Below, one piece after another: positions 32,046 through 52,402 of a DNA stretch of 64,000 nt; the stretch's first letter is position 1, and the number at the start of each line of letters is the position of its first letter. The notes beneath the pieces were generated by a model. The model was given only the letters and a program-made list of their open reading frames with translations. It was not told the DNA's origin and made no database searches. The stretch covers positions 9,418-73,417 of the forward strand of contig LNJC01000002.1 in NCBI GenBank assembly GCA_001587575.1. The letters run 5' to 3'. The position numbers and the translations under genes are program-made. Source of the DNA: Candidatus Methanofastidiosum methylothiophilum. Lineage in GTDB: Archaea > Methanobacteriota_B > Thermococci > Methanofastidiosales > Methanofastidiosaceae.

Positions 32046-32576
32046 TTAATTAGATTCTGTAGGATCAGTAACTTTGAAATCCTTATTTTTTAAATAATAA
32101 TCCATTAAATAACCAATTGCTATGAATAAAGGCACAGTAATAATGGCCCTTGCAAGGGTAAATTCTATCCCCAGATATCCAGTTTCAATTGTTAGCATCG
32201 GTATTTTGAGAGATGAAAAACATCCGAGAAATATGAATATATTTTTTACAGAAGCACCCTTTTTATAAAGTATGTAAACTATCGGGAAAGCTCCATAAAG
32301 AGGCCCCGCTTGAAACATTGAGAATATGACTGAGAGCAAAGTACCCTTTAAACCAGACTCGGGCCCCATATACTTTTCAAATTTCTTTTTAGGTATCCAT
32401 GCATCAAGTAAACCCACCAAAACAAAGACTATAGGTATAAACGAGATCATTTCAATAAACATATCTAAAAATGTCTTCGATGCCTTAATCCCAAATGCAA
32501 AGCTATAGATATATGAAAGAATTCCAAAAATAACGAAAAGTAAAATGAATCCATATTCTTTAATATATTTTTTCAC
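32046..32576 (-). CDS. Integral membrane protein, putative permease subunit (split COG0701/DUF318-like)
   Basis: 176 aa with ~5 predicted TM helices. It overlaps the upstream 160-aa membrane ORF by 4 nt. Confidence 0.35.
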   Translation of the reverse strand: MKKYIKEYGFILLFVIFGILSYIYSFAFGIKASKTFLDMFIEMISFIPIVFVLVGLLDAWIPKKKFEKYMGPESGLKGTLLSVIFSMFQAGPLYGAFPIVYILYKKGASVKNIFIFLGCFSSLKIPMLTIETGYLGIEFTLARAIITVPLFIAIGYLMDYYLKNKDFKVTDPTESN

Positions 32577-33055
32577 ATTATCGCCCCTATCAATAATCCT
32601 ATAATAATGGCAGCAAAGAAATTGAGTACATTTCTTATCAACGCAACCTTTTTTCCTAAATATTTACTTTCAAGAGGATAGGTCACAACGCCCACCATAA
32701 GTAAGGTTGTTATAAAAGTAGCAATCACCATATAAGAAGCCCCTCTCTTCAAGAGTTCTGAAGCTATAGGGTAAACTATAAATGCAGGTATCAATGTAAC
32801 TGAACCTATTATTGCCGAAAGACCCACACCAAAAAAACCAGAGTCCCCACCTAGGTATTGCTCAATCATTTCTGGCGGAACTAGAACTAAGATTATGCTT
32901 GCTATTATCATAATGTTAACAAAAGGAGAGGATAGGCCTTTGAATATTTTTATTCCTTTATTGACTCCCTGTTTTGTTTTTTCTTTATCAAAATAATAAG
33001 ATATGGAAACAATTGCAATACCTGCTATCCATAATAGAATTATATTTGGAAACAT
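32573..33055 (-). CDS. Integral membrane protein, putative permease subunit (partner of 32046..32576)
   Basis: 160 aa with ~5 TM helices. It is translationally coupled to the downstream membrane ORF. Confidence 0.35.
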   Translation of the reverse strand: MFPNIILLWIAGIAIVSISYYFDKEKTKQGVNKGIKIFKGLSSPFVNIMIIASIILVLVPPEMIEQYLGGDSGFFGVGLSAIIGSVTLIPAFIVYPIASELLKRGASYMVIATFITTLLMVGVVTYPLESKYLGKKVALIRNVLNFFAAIIIGLLIGAIM

Positions 33056-33139
33056 AAATGTAGGATGACAGTCTATTTCTTAAACTTATTGTTATGCTTA
33101 GAAATTTGATTAATGATTTTACTAAAATTATCAAAGAAA

Positions 33140-33440
33140 AAAATGCACAGTTTGTCGCTTCGAAGGAGTAGGTCTTTCATAGCCGGATGCCTCGACTTCT
33201 CGAAGCGGCTATTGTCTTTCGGTGTCCGATAGAGACATTTTTTCAATGTCAAGGACCGGGTACGTTCGAGCCTGACTCAAACACTTTCCGATAAGACTTA
33301 GCCATCCCGGAAATACCCTTGTCCAAGAGCCATGTATGCGGTGGAGCGTGATACTCAAATCCGCCTAAGCGGCTCAGATGCAAGGAATGAAAGACTTTGT
33401 TACCAGCGAAGTTTCGACCTGTGCAACATTATCTATTCAA
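33140..33440. ncRNA. Unidentified structured RNA (GC-rich island). Candidates are RNase P RNA, SRP 7S RNA or a long 5' leader; strand not determined.
   Basis: ~50% GC against a ~32% GC background, with no coding potential. A long-range closing helix joins 33171-33180 (GGTCTTTCAT) to 33387-33396 (ATGAAAGACT), with a local hairpin ATAGCCG...CGGCTAT (33179-33212) directly inside it. A CUUAUCGGAAAG-like segment reminiscent of RNase P P4 occurs on the minus strand, but the canonical GGAAAGUCCGG was not found. Confidence 0.45.
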
Positions 33441-33509
33441 TTTACTTTATTTAAAATTTTCTGTTATCAAATATTTAGAAAAAGATTTATTTTTTATAGA
33501 ATATATTTG

Positions 33510-34271
33510 TCATTTGAATCGTTCCCTGATACGGTAACCGGTGTTGTTAAACGATATGTTCTTTGCGAGTATCAATTCTTTTTCTTTCGTTATCTTTATA
33601 ATATCCTCAAGATCACGATATCTATGGGAGATATGAGTTAAGATAATTATAGTATTTTCTAATTCTTCTTTTAACTCAAGAACATCCTCAATATGAACAT
33701 GCATTCTTTCTTCAGCAATTTCTATTTCGTCTTCAAAGAAATATCTGCACTCAGTGATCAATACATTTGGCATCAATGAAATTATTTTTTGTCTATTTTT
33801 GTAATCTGAGCCTTCCCAGTCCCCCGTCACAAATATGCTTATTTCTGAATTTTTAATGTAATACCCAAAGTTTGGAACTGTATGTTTCAAAGGAACTGGA
33901 ACAACGGTAGTTCCATTAAAACGAAGCTCCTCTCCTTCTTTAATTGGAACTAATTTTCTCCTGGCCTTTGAATGGAAGTTAATCATCTTAGAATGAATAT
34001 CAAAAACATTTTCCACTTCGCCATACTCTTTTCTGTCATCATAGGGAGCATAGATTTTTATTGGATTCTCGGAAAGACTCAGAAAATCTGCTCCGCCTGC
34101 CATACATGACCTCACATGGTCAAAATGAAAATGAGTTAAAAGATATATTTTGTTCTCATTTTTTGCCCCGCAAGGACTATCAATTCTAAAATCTAACTTG
34201 TCAAGTTTAATGACTATAGAAGGGTGGTAAGGTGCATGTAACCTTACAGATCCTAAAAATTTTGAACTCAT
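33510..34271 (-). CDS. Metallo-beta-lactamase-fold hydrolase, RNase Z-like
   Basis: HxHxDH motif (LTHFHFDHV) and C-terminal ILTHISHRY resembling the RNase Z HxSxRY region. 253 aa. Confidence 0.5.
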   Translation of the reverse strand: MSSKFLGSVRLHAPYHPSIVIKLDKLDFRIDSPCGAKNENKIYLLTHFHFDHVRSCMAGGADFLSLSENPIKIYAPYDDRKEYGEVENVFDIHSKMINFHSKARRKLVPIKEGEELRFNGTTVVPVPLKHTVPNFGYYIKNSEISIFVTGDWEGSDYKNRQKIISLMPNVLITECRYFFEDEIEIAEERMHVHIEDVLELKEELENTIIILTHISHRYRDLEDIIKITKEKELILAKNISFNNTGYRIRERFK

Positions 34272-34281
34272 CTTATATCAT

Positions 34282-34653
34282 CTATGACAACTCTACAGGT
34301 ATTTTTGAGAATCTAATTCTCTGGTCTTCGTTCTTTAGCCATATGATAGGTTCGCCTTCTTTACTATCAATGTAGAATGTATATTTGTTATCTTTAATTT
34401 CGTCTGTTGTTATTTCAAGGCCTTCGTAAGCTTCCAAGGTTTTCTTGACTTCTTCACTTATGCTTTTTTCAACATAACAATCAAGAAATGAGATCTCATA
34501 AAAAACAGGATTGACCTTTTCCATGTATTCTTTTACTTCCCTGTTGTTGTTAAGATATCTTGTCAAAACTCTAACTTTTGTACTATTCTTAATAAAAGGC
34601 CTTATTCTCTTCATTAAATTAAAATCATTACATAAATTTATAAATCTTATCAC
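34282..34653 (-). CDS. Hypothetical protein (123 aa)
   Basis: ORF with no recognisable motif. Confidence 0.3.
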   Translation of the reverse strand: MIRFINLCNDFNLMKRIRPFIKNSTKVRVLTRYLNNNREVKEYMEKVNPVFYEISFLDCYVEKSISEEVKKTLEAYEGLEITTDEIKDNKYTFYIDSKEGEPIIWLKNEDQRIRFSKIPVELS

Positions 34654-49589: not shown

Positions 49590-50120
49590 TTACCGATACA
49601 TTATTTTATCTAAACTTTTTTTAAGTCTTTCAGTTATAACAATTGCAATTATTCCACCGACTACAAACTGCAGTATATTGAATGGAACTTCTACAAGTGC
49701 AACTGGAGGAGGTATCAAAAATACCAATATTTCAACTATAAAATATCCAATAACCATTATACTACCGCCAACAAATATCCCCATTAATTTATTTGTTGTT
49801 TTTTGATTACTATAAGATATTTTACCTACTACCCATCCTTCAATACCTTTTATGATAAATGTAAAAGGAGCAAAGGCAGCATAAGGAGATGTTAAATCTG
49901 CAAGAGCCGGACCAATAGCACCAACAAGCCCTCCAACAAATGGCCCGAATAATATCGCTGCAATATAAATAATAGCTTCTCCAAAGTTAAGATACCCTCC
50001 TGTCTGAAGAATCGGTATCTGGATAAATCTAGTTGCAACAAATGCAAGTGCAGAGAATACGGCAACTATCCCTATGTTTTTAGGATCTTTTATTTTTGCC
50101 AAAATTATCACATCCAACAA
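49590..50120 (-). CDS. ECF-type substrate-capture (S) component, BioY-like membrane protein
   Basis: 176 aa, 5-6 TM, BioY-like GGYLNFGEAIIYIAAILFGP segment. Confidence 0.45.
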   Translation of the reverse strand: MLDVIILAKIKDPKNIGIVAVFSALAFVATRFIQIPILQTGGYLNFGEAIIYIAAILFGPFVGGLVGAIGPALADLTSPYAAFAPFTFIIKGIEGWVVGKISYSNQKTTNKLMGIFVGGSIMVIGYFIVEILVFLIPPPVALVEVPFNILQFVVGGIIAIVITERLKKSLDKIMYR

Positions 50121-51534
50121 GATAATCTAACAAGGCTTCAAGCATACCTAGAAGGGTATGATTGTCAGCTTCAATTGTGGGATAAATTCCATTTTTGATT
50201 AATCCATTACTTGTTTCAGGTCCGATTGAAACAATAATTTCTGCGTTCAATCCCATCTTTTTAAATGCGTCAGCATTTGAAGAGCTCGAAATAAATGCAA
50301 TGTCAAAATTCTTTTTGCCAGGAATATCTCTTCTCATATTAACTTTATATACGTCAACTCTTGTAACATCATGAAACTCTTTTAGTCTTTCTTCTAGATA
50401 TCCTGGTGCTTCCTGCGATCTTAAAGTCAAAATTCTTTTTCTCTCTTTAAATTCCGATATCATGAATTTTGCAAGTTCCTTTGAATTGTATTTTTCAGGC
50501 CTTCTTGAGTAAATTCCTTTTTCAATTAGTTTTTCTTCAGTTTTAGGCCCAATAGTATAGTATTCTATATCTTTAGGTAAATCAATATTTTCAAGCCTAT
50601 CAACACCTTTAGCACTTGTAAGGACTACCACATCATAATCAGACAAATTAGGAACTTTGAAATCGATATTTATTATCTCAATAAGCGAGTATGCATAGAC
50701 CTTTGCACCCATTTTTTTCATGATTTCTAGTTCTTCTCCGCTTTCTCTGGAAACAAATATTTCTTTTCCTTTAATCAAGGATAATTTTTTCTCGAAGAAG
50801 TCAAGTTTATCCCTAAATAAAACGTTTTTACCTACAAATATAACAGAAGGCGGTTCTGCAGGGGTCTTGCCTAGTGTACTTAAATCACAAATTGTTGTTT
50901 CTTGTAATAGAGAAGTTCCATTTTTGATTATGGCAACTGGCGTCTTTGGATCGAATCCTGCTTTTATAAGATTTTGAGCTATTGCTTCTCTATTTTTTAT
51001 CCCCATTACTATAACTAAAGTATCTGGAAGCTTATTCCAATTAATACTGAATGACTTATTTTCAGCTTCGTGGCCAGTTAGAAATGCAAAAACTGAGTTT
51101 GATTCTCTATAAGAAAGAGGAATTCCTGAATACATAGGGCACGAGACAGTGGACGAAATTCCTGGAATAACTTCAAAAGGTATACCCCTTTCATAAAGAT
51201 ACATTGCCTCCTCTGCACCCCTTCCAAAAATATATGGATCTCCTCCTTTTAGTCTAACGACTATCTTGTAATCTTTTCCATAGTCGTAAAGTTCTCTATT
51301 AATGTCCTCTTGAAATTGACTAGAGCCTTCTGACTTCTTTCCAACGTATACTTTAATACATTCTTTTTTAGAATATGAGAGTAGGTCCTTACTTACAAGT
51401 TTGTCGTATAGGATAACATCAGCTTTCTTAATCAATTCTAGGGCTTTAACCGTGATTAATTTTGGGTCACCCGGACCTGCCCCTACTATATAAACAACCA
51501 AAAGATCACTCTCTAATATTGACTCTCTTAGCAA
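50080..51534 (-). CDS. Uroporphyrinogen-III C-methyltransferase fused to uroporphyrinogen-III synthase (CobA/HemD)
   Basis: N-terminal SUMT motifs (VYIVGAGPGDPKLITVKA...ADVILYD) and a C-terminal HemD-like half. 484 aa. Confidence 0.75.
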   Translation of the reverse strand: MLRESILESDLLVVYIVGAGPGDPKLITVKALELIKKADVILYDKLVSKDLLSYSKKECIKVYVGKKSEGSSQFQEDINRELYDYGKDYKIVVRLKGGDPYIFGRGAEEAMYLYERGIPFEVIPGISSTVSCPMYSGIPLSYRESNSVFAFLTGHEAENKSFSINWNKLPDTLVIVMGIKNREAIAQNLIKAGFDPKTPVAIIKNGTSLLQETTICDLSTLGKTPAEPPSVIFVGKNVLFRDKLDFFEKKLSLIKGKEIFVSRESGEELEIMKKMGAKVYAYSLIEIINIDFKVPNLSDYDVVVLTSAKGVDRLENIDLPKDIEYYTIGPKTEEKLIEKGIYSRRPEKYNSKELAKFMISEFKERKRILTLRSQEAPGYLEERLKEFHDVTRVDVYKVNMRRDIPGKKNFDIAFISSSSNADAFKKMGLNAEIIVSIGPETSNGLIKNGIYPTIEADNHTLLGMLEALLDYLVGCDNFGKNKRS

Positions 51535-52402
51535 GGTCTTTTGCTAACTTTATATAATCTTCCTTATTTCCTTTTATTTCGCCTCTAACAGACTTAGTGC
51601 CCTCAAAATTACCCACAAATGCTTTGAGTTCTATTTCATCTCTATTAATAAAAGAAAGAGCACCTACCGGTAAGTTACATCCTCCGCCTACATCAATCAT
51701 GAATTGCCTCTCACACATTGTTTCAATTCTAGTTTTTCCATCATCGATATTTTTTAATATTTTTTTTATCTTAGAATCCTCTTTTCTACATACAATAGCC
51801 AAAGCTCCTTGTCCTGGAGCAGGAATAATAATCTCTGGGCTTATTCGAGAAAAATTATATCCTTCAATTTGATTTATCTCTCCATACAATCTTCTGAATC
51901 CAGATTCAGCAACTATTATTGCATCATACTGTCCTTCCTTTAGTTTTCTTATTCTTGTATCTAAATTTCCTCTAATGTCTTTTAGATCTAGATCTGGACG
52001 AATTCTTGATATTTCAGATTTTCTTCTTAAGGAGGATGTGCCAACCGAAGCCTGTTCTGGAAGTTCTTCTATAGATTCTTCAATACTTATTATGGCGTCG
52101 TATGGAGGCCTTCTTTTTGTAATAGCGCAAATTTCAAGTTCTGGTAAAATATCAGTTGGATAATCTTTAAGTGAATGAATGGCAAAATCAATTTGATTAT
52201 TAATAAGGGCATCATCTATTTCTTTTATAAATAGGCCTTTACTTCCTATCTTGTGTAATGGAAGATCAAGAATCTGGTCACCTTTAGTTTTTATTATCTT
52301 TTTTTCAACTTCTATTCCAGTTATACTAGATAACTCCACGATAGCTTCATCAGTTTGAGTCAAAGCTAACTTAGATCCTCTTGTACCGCAAATAAGTTTC
52401 AT
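51506..52402 (-). CDS. hemC: Porphobilinogen deaminase (hydroxymethylbilane synthase)
   Basis: N-terminal ICGTRGSKLALTQT and dipyrromethane cofactor Cys context (GGGCNLP). Confidence 0.85.
   Translation of the reverse strand: MKLICGTRGSKLALTQTDEAIVELSSITGIEVEKKIIKTKGDQILDLPLHKIGSKGLFIKEIDDALINNQIDFAIHSLKDYPTDILPELEICAITKRRPPYDAIISIEESIEELPEQASVGTSSLRRKSEISRIRPDLDLKDIRGNLDTRIRKLKEGQYDAIIVAESGFRRLYGEINQIEGYNFSRISPEIIIPAPGQGALAIVCRKEDSKIKKILKNIDDGKTRIETMCERQFMIDVGGGCNLPVGALSFINRDEIELKAFVGNFEGTKSVRGEIKGNKEDYIKLAKDLAKRVNIRE

What the first reader, a model, noticed from the sequence alone, without database searches (positions are those of the whole stretch)
33140..33440. GC-rich, non-coding, highly structured ~250-nt RNA island of unknown identity
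The only strongly GC-enriched non-coding stretch in the window, at ~50% GC against ~32%. It sits between a permease operon and an RNase Z-like gene. I can see a perfect 9-10-bp long-range closing helix (33171-33180 with 33387-33396) and a nested hairpin (ATAGCCG/CGGCTAT, 33179-33212) directly inside it. That architecture is typical of RNase P RNA or SRP RNA, both of which have paired 5'/3' ends. I could not find the canonical RNase P CR-I (GGAAAGUCCGG) or the SRP helix-8 GGAA/AGCA motifs on either strand, so it may be a divergent or novel RNA. A 5'-leader or riboswitch for the minus-strand permease operon that starts at 33055 is an alternative. The overlapping 87-aa ORF (33378..33641) is almost certainly spurious.
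Basis: seen in the sequence. Interest (0 to 1): 0.65.

Follow-up and report, generated by a model that had tools for sequence, protein, structure and literature searches.

The report
Novel archaeal RNA gene, probably circularised
The GC-rich island is a real, independently transcribed ~281-nt structured RNA gene on the minus strand of a Methanofastidiosum genome; it matches no known RNA family, and its closing stem has the exact shape that the archaeal tRNA-splicing enzyme cuts, so the mature product is probably a ~261-nt RNA circle.

Summary
Window 33144-33424 is the most GC-rich stretch of the window (0.50 against 0.33). It encodes a structured non-coding RNA on the MINUS strand. It has its own BRE/TATA box (33448-33462) and an oligo-T terminator (33137-33143).

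The source is Candidatus Methanofastidiosum. I recovered 34 full copies (16 distinct), all just 3' of the same orphan-protein and RNase Z/PhnP-like MBL gene pair. The RNA is 94% identical between species, against 81% for the MBL coding sequence and 34% for the downstream flank. Single-base indels and G-U wobbles rule out coding and fix the strand.

It is not RNase P RNA, SRP RNA or any of the 4227 Rfam 15 families. It is not a leader of the permease, which is missing downstream in many species.

New point: the terminal stem is a canonical bulge-helix-bulge motif (6 bp, AAA bulge, 4 bp, AAA bulge, 5 bp) with the correct polarity, kept in all 16 variants. This predicts excision by EndA and ligation by RtcB into a 261-nt circle (33152-33412). 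The closest precedent is the BHB-processed circular SRP RNA of Thermoproteus.

Circularisation and function are inferred, not shown. Only the peripheral helices have covariation support; the core fold is unresolved.

The parts
33448..33462 (-). Archaeal promoter: purine-rich BRE (AGAAAAT, 33456-33462) followed by TATA box TTTAAATA (33455-33448). The TATA box is centred about 27 nt upstream of the first base of the RNA.
   Evidence: Read from the sequence. TTTAAATA lies within 40 nt upstream in 34 of 34 full copies.
33137..33424 (-). Predicted primary transcript: a 281-nt structured RNA (33424 down to 33144) plus an oligo-U tail.
   Evidence: Conservation starts at the promoter and stops at the T-run. 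Fold z-score -5.9. Six one-base indel columns show it is non-coding. G-U pairs fit only this strand.
33137..33143 (-). Oligo-T (T7) intrinsic archaeal terminator, one base after the terminal stem.
   Evidence: Sequence. A run of four or more T lies within 15 nt downstream in 34 of 34 copies.
33419..33424 (-). BHB outer helix h, 5' strand (GCACAG). It pairs with 33145-33150. It is predicted to be part of a 12-nt 5' 'exon'.
   Evidence: 6 of 6 pairs kept in 16 of 16 variants, with one G-U.
33415..33418 (-). BHB central 4-bp helix H, 5' strand (GUCG). It pairs with 33154-33157.
   Evidence: 4 bp in all 16 variants, with one G-U in L009.
33412..33414 (-). BHB bulge 1 (AAA). The predicted EndA cut lies between 33413 and 33412.
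   Evidence: Geometry. The cut position is taken from established knowledge of BHB cleavage and was not tested.
33407..33411 (-). BHB inner helix h', 5' strand (CUUCG). It pairs with 33158-33162.
   Evidence: the pair at alignment columns 18/267 shows G-C, G-U and A-U (one double compensatory change).
33158..33162 (-). BHB inner helix h', 3' strand (CGAAG).
33154..33157 (-). BHB central helix H, 3' strand (CGAC).
33151..33153 (-). BHB bulge 2 (AAA; AUA in three variants). The predicted EndA cut lies between 33152 and 33151.
33145..33150 (-). BHB outer helix h, 3' strand (CUGUGC).
33152..33412 (-). Predicted mature product: a 261-nt circular RNA (RNA nt 13-273). The junction ...CGAAGCGACAA|ACUUCG... 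caps the inner helix with a 7-nt loop.
   Evidence: Derived from the BHB geometry. Inference only; no junction reads were available.
33387..33395 (-). Helix P3, 5' strand (GUCUUUCAU). It pairs with 33172-33180.
   Evidence: Invariant 9 bp; mean pairing probability 0.91.
33172..33180 (-). Helix P3, 3' strand (AUGAAAGAC).
33327..33375 (-). Hairpin HA: a long irregular hairpin of three stacked helices with a 6x6 internal loop.
   Evidence: Double compensatory change at columns 71/79 and wobble changes at 50/99 and 51/98.
33264..33282 (-). Hairpin HB: 8 bp with a variable triloop.
   Evidence: Five of eight pairs vary on one side through G-U.
33234..33250 (-). Hairpin HC (GACAUU / AAUGUC).
   Evidence: Pairing probability 0.99 in all sequences.
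33179..33212 (-). Hairpin HD: GCUUCGA-GAAG-UCGAAGC with a GNAR-type loop.
   Evidence: Double compensatory change at columns 224/239. The outer extension competes with an alternative long-range helix.
33510..34271 (-). Context: 253-aa MBL-fold RNase Z/PhnP-like phosphodiesterase gene, immediately upstream of the RNA gene in every copy found. This adjacency is an ascertainment caveat, because loci were retrieved through this gene or its neighbour.
34282..34653 (-). Context: orphan protein of 110-128 aa restricted to Methanofastidiosum, 87-95% identical, always placed as hyp123-MBL-RNA.

Best explanation
This is a stand-alone gene for a novel structured non-coding RNA of Candidatus Methanofastidiosum.

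Proposed mechanism, step by step:
1. It is transcribed on the minus strand from its own BRE/TATA promoter, starting at about 33424, and terminated at the oligo-T run 33143-33137.
2. The first 18 and last 18 paired-region nucleotides form a canonical hBHBh' motif. The order is a 6-bp outer helix, a 3-nt bulge on the 3' strand, a 4-bp central helix, a 3-nt bulge on the 5' strand, and a 5-bp inner helix.
3. The archaeal tRNA-splicing endonuclease EndA cuts in both bulges.
4. RtcB joins the ends.
5. The result is a stable 261-nt circular RNA (33412 to 33152) and a discarded mini-hairpin of about 20 nt.

The circle is a multi-branched RNA. It has a long closing arm (h', P2, P3), four well-supported hairpins (HA-HD) and a still unresolved core.

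What is shown and what is inferred:
- Shown in silico: the gene, its strand, its boundaries, purifying selection, part of the structure, and the BHB geometry with its conservation.
- Inferred: cleavage, circularisation and function.

The function is most likely that of a stable scaffold or partner RNA. It is possibly linked to the co-conserved orphan protein and the RNase Z/PhnP-like MBL enzyme encoded just upstream.
For: Gene and strand:
- Highest GC of the window; fold z -5.9.
- TTTAAATA lies 24-31 nt upstream and a T-run lies downstream in 34 of 34 copies.
- The RNA is 93.8% identical between species, against 81.4% for the MBL coding sequence and 33.9% for the downstream flank.
- One-base indels occur in six columns.
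- 99% of cells are paired, with many G-U pairs that would be A-C on the other strand. There are three pairs with double compensatory changes, reached by 1 of 500 shuffles.

BHB:
- The 6/3/4/3/5 geometry is read and is present in all 16 distinct variants.
- Each bulge lies 3' of its central-helix strand, as in tRNA introns and rRNA processing stems.
- All four pairs flanking the bulges are G-C.
- A mini-substrate folds into this shape at -21.9 kcal/mol.
- A strict scan finds this motif exactly at the ends of the conserved RNA.

Precedent: BHB-flanked rRNAs, tRNA introns, the HVO_1309 5' UTR (PMC7714728) and the TATA, short-leader, BHB-flanked, circularised SRP RNA gene of Thermoproteus (PMC4731332).

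Not a known family.
Against: - No RNA-seq or junction read could be examined.
- A strict BHB geometry turns up 2-3 times per 64 kb by chance (3 observed, 2-3 in shuffles). The motif is significant only through its position at the RNA ends and its conservation, and everything in this RNA is conserved.
- Only one compensatory pair lies in the BHB region.
- L009 has a mismatch at the first pair of the inner helix.
- The family was found only in one genus, and no function can be assigned.
- The core fold is ambiguous. Two exclusive models are both about 99% compatible.
Confidence: 0.6

Rival explanations
1. It is a linear, independently transcribed structured small RNA of unknown function. Its terminal stem resembles a BHB by chance, and the mature RNA is the 281-nt primary transcript.
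For: All evidence for a gene is equally compatible with this. Strict BHB geometries occur at chance level in the window. No experimental junction is available.
Against: The BHB sits exactly at the transcript ends. It has exact 3-4-3 spacing and the correct polarity, G-C pairs flank both bulges, and the flanking helices are full length. It is kept in 16 of 16 variants. Minimal 'exons' of 12 and about 8 nt placed directly between the TATA box and the T-run look designed for excision, as in Thermoproteus SRP RNA (PMC4731332).
Confidence: 0.27
2. It is a highly divergent, possibly circularly permuted, housekeeping RNA (RNase P RNA or SRP RNA) that covariance models cannot recognise.
For: The size of 260-280 nt, the strong promoter and the extreme conservation fit. 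The sequence AAAGUC, followed by a long-range helix, resembles CR-I/P4. A GNAR (GAAG) hairpin is present. Thermoproteus hid its SRP RNA in just this way (PMC4731332). Circular RNase P and SRP RNAs are reported in Thermococcales (bioRxiv 10.64898/2026.03.23.713588).
Against: - No RNaseP_arch, RNaseP-T or Archaea_SRP hit appears even at E<=10 with permissive filters and local alignment.
- The P4-like helix is nested with the terminal stem, with no P2/P3 pseudoknot topology and no bulged U. There is no ACAGAA...GGCUUA.
- There is no helix-8 GGAA/AGCA motif, only one GNAR loop, and a multi-branched rather than rod-like fold.
- It is seen only in one genus, together with a genus-restricted orphan protein.
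Confidence: 0.05
3. It is a cis-acting 5' leader, riboswitch or BHB intron of the 5' UTR of the downstream gene, like the HVO_1309 intron of Haloferax.
For: It has the same orientation as the downstream permease in the window, about 85 nt upstream. A BHB intron in a 5' UTR has a precedent (PMC7714728).
Against: A T-run (seven T in the window) follows the RNA in all copies. Downstream sequence is 34% identical. The downstream gene differs between species: the ArsP pair, a single ArsP, or the 352-aa protein. A TATA-like box lies in front of the permease ATG. No riboswitch family matches.
Confidence: 0.05
4. It is a protein-coding region or a chance GC fluctuation.
For: Short ORFs of 25-87 aa overlap it.
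Against: One-base indels occur between species. There is no Pfam hit. A pseudo-protein made of open stretches from all six reading frames of the RNA region found no homologue. The substitution pattern preserves base pairs.
Confidence: 0.01

Closest known systems
Permuted, BHB-processed circular SRP RNA gene of Thermoproteus tenax / T. uzoniensis (Plagens et al. 2015, PMC4731332)
   Same: A stand-alone ncRNA gene with a TATA box about 26 nt upstream of the start. A short leader and trailer pair into a BHB at the ends of a highly structured RNA of about 300 nt. The predicted or shown product is a circle made by EndA and RtcB. It is invisible to standard covariance models.
   Different: The Thermoproteus RNA carries the SRP motifs (helix-8b SRP54 site, GNAR of helix 6) and is rod-like; the window RNA has neither. 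The host here is a euryarchaeon, where a strict 3-4-3 BHB is expected to be needed, and that is what is present. Circularisation is shown experimentally there and only inferred here.
Processing stems of archaeal 16S/23S pre-rRNA (circ-pre-rRNA intermediates)
   Same: Inverted repeats flanking the RNA form a BHB (a 4-bp helix with two 3-nt bulges). This is cut by EndA and ligated into a circle (PMC7714728; bioRxiv 10.64898/2026.03.23.713588).
   Different: No similarity to rRNA. The gene is monocistronic with its own promoter. The outer helix is only 6 bp. rRNA circles are mostly re-opened intermediates.
BHB introns of tRNAs and of the HVO_1309 5' UTR (Haloferax)
   Same: The same recognition motif and the same predicted chemistry. 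Excised pieces become circles, and some are functional (the C/D box RNA in the tRNA-Trp intron).
   Different: Here the 'exons' are only about 12 and about 8 nt and encode nothing recognisable. The conserved, selected part is the excised piece itself.
Archaeal RNase P RNA (Rfam RNaseP_arch, RNaseP-T)
   Same: Similar size, paired 5'/3' ends, a long-range helix beginning with AAAGUC, and high GC in an AT-rich genome.
   Different: No model match. No CR-I/CR-V consensus. No P2/P3 and no P2-P4 pseudoknot order. No cruciform S-domain.
Archaeal SRP (7S) RNA (Rfam Archaea_SRP)
   Same: Similar size, paired ends, and one GNAR hairpin.
   Different: No model match. No helix-8 motif. No long helix 5. 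A multi-branched fold.

Membership tests
Substrate of the archaeal splicing endonuclease (hBHBh' motif) | A central helix of exactly 4 bp, flanked by two 3-nt bulges on opposite strands (definition as in PMC7714728 and PMC4731332). | tested here: met
   GUCG/CGAC between AAA (33412-33414) and AAA (33151-33153). Present in 16 of 16 distinct copies.
Substrate of the archaeal splicing endonuclease (hBHBh' motif) | Polarity: each bulge lies 3' of its strand of the central helix, so the excised piece carries the inner helix (established knowledge of tRNA-intron BHBs). | tested here: met
   The 5' strand reads h(1-6)-H(7-10)-bulge(11-13)-h'(14-18). The 3' strand reads h'-H-bulge-h.
Substrate of the archaeal splicing endonuclease (hBHBh' motif) | Stable flanking helices h and h' on both sides, as a strict (canonical) motif requires. 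| tested here: met
   6 bp and 5 bp, all Watson-Crick in the window copy. G-C pairs flank both bulges. The mini-substrate folds at -21.9 kcal/mol.
Substrate of the archaeal splicing endonuclease (hBHBh' motif) | More than chance. | tested here: inconclusive
   A strict scan gives 3 hits in the window against 2-3 in shuffles. The other two lie inside ORFs. Significance rests on coincidence with the RNA ends and on conservation.
Substrate of the archaeal splicing endonuclease (hBHBh' motif) | Cleavage in the bulges and a circular ligation junction in vivo. | not testable with these tools
   No transcriptome data. The junction 20-mer is absent from viral contigs.
Archaeal RNase P RNA | Match to the Rfam covariance models (RNaseP_arch, RNaseP-T). 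| tested here: not met
   No hit at gathering score or at E<=10.
Archaeal RNase P RNA | CR-I (GGAAAGUCC) and CR-V (ACAGAA..GGCUUA) forming P4 with a bulged U, and the P1-P2-P3...P2'-P4'-P1' pseudoknot order. | tested here: not met
   Only AAAGUC is present. The helix GUCUUUCAU/AUGAAAGAC is fully paired and nested directly inside the terminal stem, with no P2/P3.
Archaeal SRP RNA (including the permuted Thermoproteus type) | Match to Archaea_SRP. A helix-8 SRP54 site with a GNAR loop, a helix-6 GNAR loop, and a long helix 5. | tested here: not met
   No Rfam hit. One GNAR loop only (GAAG in HD). The predicted junction loop is CGACAAA. The fold is multi-branched. A rotated sequence could not be scanned.
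Riboswitch / cis-regulatory leader of the downstream permease | Constant linkage to the regulated gene and continuity of the transcript. | tested here: not met
   The downstream gene varies. A T-run is present in 34 of 34 copies. The flank is 34% identical. No riboswitch model matches.
Same family as the Theionarchaea RNA found 3' of the MBL orthologue | Detectable sequence or structure homology. | tested here: not met
   Covariance model R1 finds no match in the window or in Methanofastidiosum loci at E<=10. The Smith-Waterman score is no better than shuffles.

The most novel reading that the evidence does not exclude
A new class of archaeal gene whose only product is a BHB-excised, RtcB-ligated circular RNA. 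The RNA has a fold unrelated to rRNA, tRNA, SRP or RNase P. It acts together with the co-conserved, lineage-specific orphan protein and the RNase Z/PhnP-like metallo-hydrolase encoded just upstream, as a dedicated circular-RNA ribonucleoprotein or enzyme-substrate pair. The unrelated structured RNA at the same position next to the MBL orthologue in Theionarchaea would then be its functional counterpart.
Probability: 0.25. Interest if true: 0.8.

Novelty: new variant of a known kind. Interest (0 to 1): 0.62.

Why it matters
Besides rRNA precursors, tRNA introns and two mRNA cases, the only ncRNA gene known to rely on the tRNA-splicing machinery for its maturation is the permuted SRP RNA of Thermoproteus.

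A second, unrelated, stand-alone BHB-flanked RNA in a euryarchaeal methanogen lineage would show that archaea use EndA and RtcB more generally to make stable circular non-coding RNAs. It would also add an uncharacterised, very strongly conserved RNA to a globally important but uncultured group of methyl-reducing methanogens.

It is directly testable. A single junction sequence can be searched in digester metatranscriptomes, and a 288-nt transcript can be given to recombinant EndA.

It also shows that GC-island scans in AT-rich archaeal genomes still find RNA families absent from Rfam.

Tried and rejected
- Rfam 15 at gathering scores on the whole window and on six related loci, and at E<=10 on 33050-33520 and on the Theionarchaea RNA. 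Only noise was returned: SCARNA7, Intron_gpI, psRNA6, SNORA38.
- ARAGORN found no tRNA or tmRNA in the window.
- The sigma-70 promoter and hairpin-terminator scan is not informative for an archaeon.
- RNase P was rejected on motifs and topology. SRP was rejected on motifs and shape.
- Homology to the Theionarchaea RNA was rejected. Covariance model R1 gave no hit, and local alignment was no better than shuffles.
- I built a 393-aa pseudo-protein from open stretches of all six reading frames of the RNA region and of the predicted circular junction, to fish for spuriously called ORFs in 5.8 billion proteins, including assemblies of sequencing runs. It gave no hit.
- The junction 20-mer and a conserved 21-mer were absent from viral contigs.
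- blastn against phages and plasmids gave no match, so there is no sign of a mobile-element origin.
- PADLOC on the MBL and orphan proteins gave nothing.
- The orphan 123-aa protein has no Pfam hit, no significant PDB match and no homologues outside the genus.
- I tried to resolve the core fold. Two mutually exclusive models, X (RNAalifold) and Y (single-sequence MFE), are both about 99% compatible. X is lower in energy on every sequence, but Y-type pairs dominate single-sequence ensembles. This is unresolved.
- Extra look-ups through the orphan protein added only two new RNA variants.

Full report
**Observation**

The stretch 33140-33440 is real and stands out.
- 150-nt windows between 33201 and 33400 reach GC 0.50, against 0.334 for the whole window. 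They are the top-ranked windows of all 64 kb.
33172-33180 pairs perfectly with 33387-33395 (9 bp). ATAGCCG/CGGCTAT closes 33179-33212.
- The region folds much better than dinucleotide shuffles on both strands, z -4.7 for + and -5.9 for -.
- The neighbours are as described: a split ArsP_1-type permease (32046-33055, minus) and a 253-aa MBL-fold protein (33510-34271, minus). The MBL protein's best, far sub-threshold, matches are RNase Z and PhnP.

**Source and relatives**

- The MBL protein is encoded on NCBI contig LNGE01000002.1 of assembly GCA_001587655.1.
- Homologous proteins and GTDB loci are named Candidatus Methanofastidiosum.
- Using the MBL gene and its upstream neighbour as anchors, I collected 63 loci in all. 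They hold 34 full copies of the RNA, of which 16 are distinct.

**It is a gene, and it lies on the minus strand**

- In the alignments, conservation begins at a BRE/TATA element. This is AGAAAAT followed by TTTAAATA at window 33462-33448, centred about 27 nt upstream of G33424.
- Conservation ends at an oligo-T run right after the terminal stem (33143-33137). Beyond it the sequences cannot be aligned.
- All 34 copies have the TATA box and a T-run.
- Mean pairwise identity is 93.8% for the RNA, 81.4% for the MBL coding sequence and 33.9% downstream. The RNA is therefore under stronger constraint than the protein gene next to it.
- Six alignment columns carry one-base indels, which no reading frame would tolerate.
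- The substitutions are mostly C/U and A/G changes that turn G-C or A-U pairs into G-U pairs on the minus strand (for example columns 51/98, 125/221, 149/161, 220/247). On the plus strand these would be A-C mismatches.
- The 87-aa ORF and the other short ORFs are spurious.

**What it is not**

- None of the 4227 Rfam 15 families matches. This holds at gathering scores in the whole window and in six related loci, and at E<=10 with permissive filters on the region itself.
- RNase P RNA. The RNA contains AAAGUC followed by a long-range helix, GUCUUUCAU with AUGAAAGAC. That helix is fully paired and nested directly inside the terminal stem. There is no P2/P3, no pseudoknot order, no ACAGAA...GGCUUA and no cruciform specificity domain.
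- SRP RNA. There is no helix-8 motif, only one GNAR loop (GAAG), and the fold is multi-branched rather than rod-like.
- A leader of the permease.
  - The T-run terminator is universal among the copies.
  - The flank downstream is unconserved.
  - The gene downstream differs between species: the ArsP pair, a single ArsP, or directly the 352-aa protein. The block of orphan protein, MBL and RNA is constant.
- No similarity to phage or plasmid DNA was found.

**The new point: the terminal stem is a bulge-helix-bulge motif**

The RNA is numbered from 33424.

| Element | RNA nt | Sequence |
|---|---|---|
| Outer helix | 1-6 with 275-280 | GCACAG / CUGUGC |
| Central helix | 7-10 with 268-271 | GUCG / CGAC |
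| Inner helix | 14-18 with 263-267 | CUUCG / CGAAG |
| Bulge on the 5' strand | 11-13 | AAA |
| Bulge on the 3' strand | 272-274 | AAA |

- This is the 3-4-3 hBHBh' motif recognised by the archaeal splicing endonuclease: a four-base-pair helix flanked by two three-nucleotide bulges (PMC7714728, PMC4731332).
- The polarity is that of tRNA introns and rRNA processing stems. Each bulge lies 3' of its central-helix strand.
- All four pairs next to the bulges are G-C.
- The geometry is kept in all 16 variants. One pair co-varies (G-C, G-U, A-U), there are two wobble changes, and one bulge base varies.
- A mini-substrate folds into this shape at -21.9 kcal/mol.
- A strict scan of both strands of the window finds three such geometries against 2-3 in shuffles, so the motif alone is not rare. 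The other two hits lie inside ORFs on the opposite strand. This one coincides to the base with the ends of an independently delimited RNA gene.

**Mechanism proposed (inferred)**

- EndA cuts between the second and third nucleotide of each bulge. This position comes from established knowledge of BHB cleavage.
- RtcB ligates the ends.
- The result is a 261-nt circle (33412 to 33152) whose junction ...CGAAGCGACAA|ACUUCG... caps the inner helix with a 7-nt loop.
- The 12-nt leader and the short trailer join into a small hairpin that is presumably discarded.
- The layout is a TATA box, a minimal leader, a BHB, a structured RNA of about 260-300 nt and a minimal trailer. This parallels the permuted SRP RNA gene of Thermoproteus tenax, where circularisation by the splicing machinery was shown experimentally (PMC4731332).
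- Circular RNase P and SRP RNAs are also reported in Thermococcales, the cultured relatives (bioRxiv 10.64898/2026.03.23.713588).

**Structure of the RNA**

- Well supported are the terminal arm, P2 (2 bp), P3 (9 bp, invariant), the long hairpin HA (double change at 71/79), HB (five pairs vary through wobbles), HC, and HD with a GAAG loop (double change at 224/239).
- The core (alignment columns 100-145 and 165-250) can be drawn in two mutually exclusive ways, both about 99% compatible with all sequences.
  - Model X has a 14-bp long-range helix, GGCUAAGUCUUAUCGG with CCGAAAGACAAUAGCC.
  - X is lower in energy on every sequence, but Y-type pairs dominate single-sequence ensembles.
  - The ambiguity arises because two helices share nearly the same sequence (AAGUCUU / AAGAC).
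- With only 16 close variants this cannot be settled.

**Context and function**

- The RNA is always preceded by an orphan protein of 110-128 aa (87-95% identical, found only in this genus) and by the RNase Z/PhnP-like MBL enzyme.
- This adjacency is partly an ascertainment effect, because loci were retrieved through these genes.
- In Theionarchaea, the MBL orthologue (38-39% identity) is also followed directly by a promoter-bearing structured RNA of about 115 nt. That RNA shows five doubly compensated pairs among three sequences.
- The Theionarchaea RNA shows no detectable homology to the window RNA and has no BHB.
- A third lineage (L027, 45% identity) has no RNA at that place.
- A functional link between the MBL enzyme and an adjacent RNA is therefore possible but unproven.
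- I can assign no function beyond a stable, probably circular, scaffold or partner RNA.

**Verdict**

- A genuine, novel ncRNA gene: confidence about 0.95.
- Very likely a splicing-endonuclease substrate that matures into a circle: about 0.6.
- Not RNase P RNA, not SRP RNA, not a riboswitch.
- The novelty lies in a new RNA family combined with a rare biogenesis route, so I rate it a new variant of a known kind.

Noticed in passing
L020:5896-6010, L024:5899-6013, L029:2375-2490, L030:618-732 (+ strand of each locus): In Theionarchaea, the orthologue of the MBL gene is also followed directly by a TATA-preceded structured RNA of about 115 nt. It has a closing stem and three hairpins, two of them with GAAA loops. 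It has no Rfam match and shows five doubly compensated pairs among only three sequences. It appears to be a second undescribed RNA family at the same genomic position, not detectably homologous to the window RNA and without a BHB.
   Followed up: partly
window 34282-34653 (-): This is an orphan protein of 110-128 aa found only in Methanofastidiosum. It is 87-95% identical, which is more conserved than the MBL enzyme next to it. It has no Pfam match and no significant PDB match, only a very weak LoaP/NusG-like hit (E 0.004). It is always arranged as orphan-MBL-RNA.
   Followed up: partly
window 32046-33055 (-) and loci L002, L007, L009, L010, L012, L039: The split ArsP_1-type permease pair downstream of the RNA is present in some Methanofastidiosum species, reduced to one gene in others, and absent in others. 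The 352-aa beta-propeller-like protein then follows the RNA directly.
   Followed up: yes
window 50053-51296 and 50579-52021 (+): Two further strict 5/4/5 bulge-helix-bulge geometries were found. Both lie inside minus-strand ORFs, and their number equals the shuffle expectation, so they are chance matches.
   Followed up: yes
window 33172-33395 (-), RNA nt 28-38, 127-137, 203-218, 245-254: Two helices of the RNA have nearly the same sequence: AAGUCUUUCAU/AUGAAAGAC and UAAGUCUUAUCGG/CCGAAAGACAAUA. Several mutually exclusive pairings are therefore equally conserved. This could reflect an internal duplication or a conformational switch.
   Followed up: partly
whole window 1-64000: There is no tRNA gene and no Rfam family at gathering score anywhere in the 64 kb. 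The RNA at 33144-33424 is the only RNA gene detected.
   Followed up: yes
L027:1501-2330: A high-GC lineage has an MBL homologue at 45% identity but no RNA gene after it. The next ORF starts about 70 nt downstream.
   Followed up: partly
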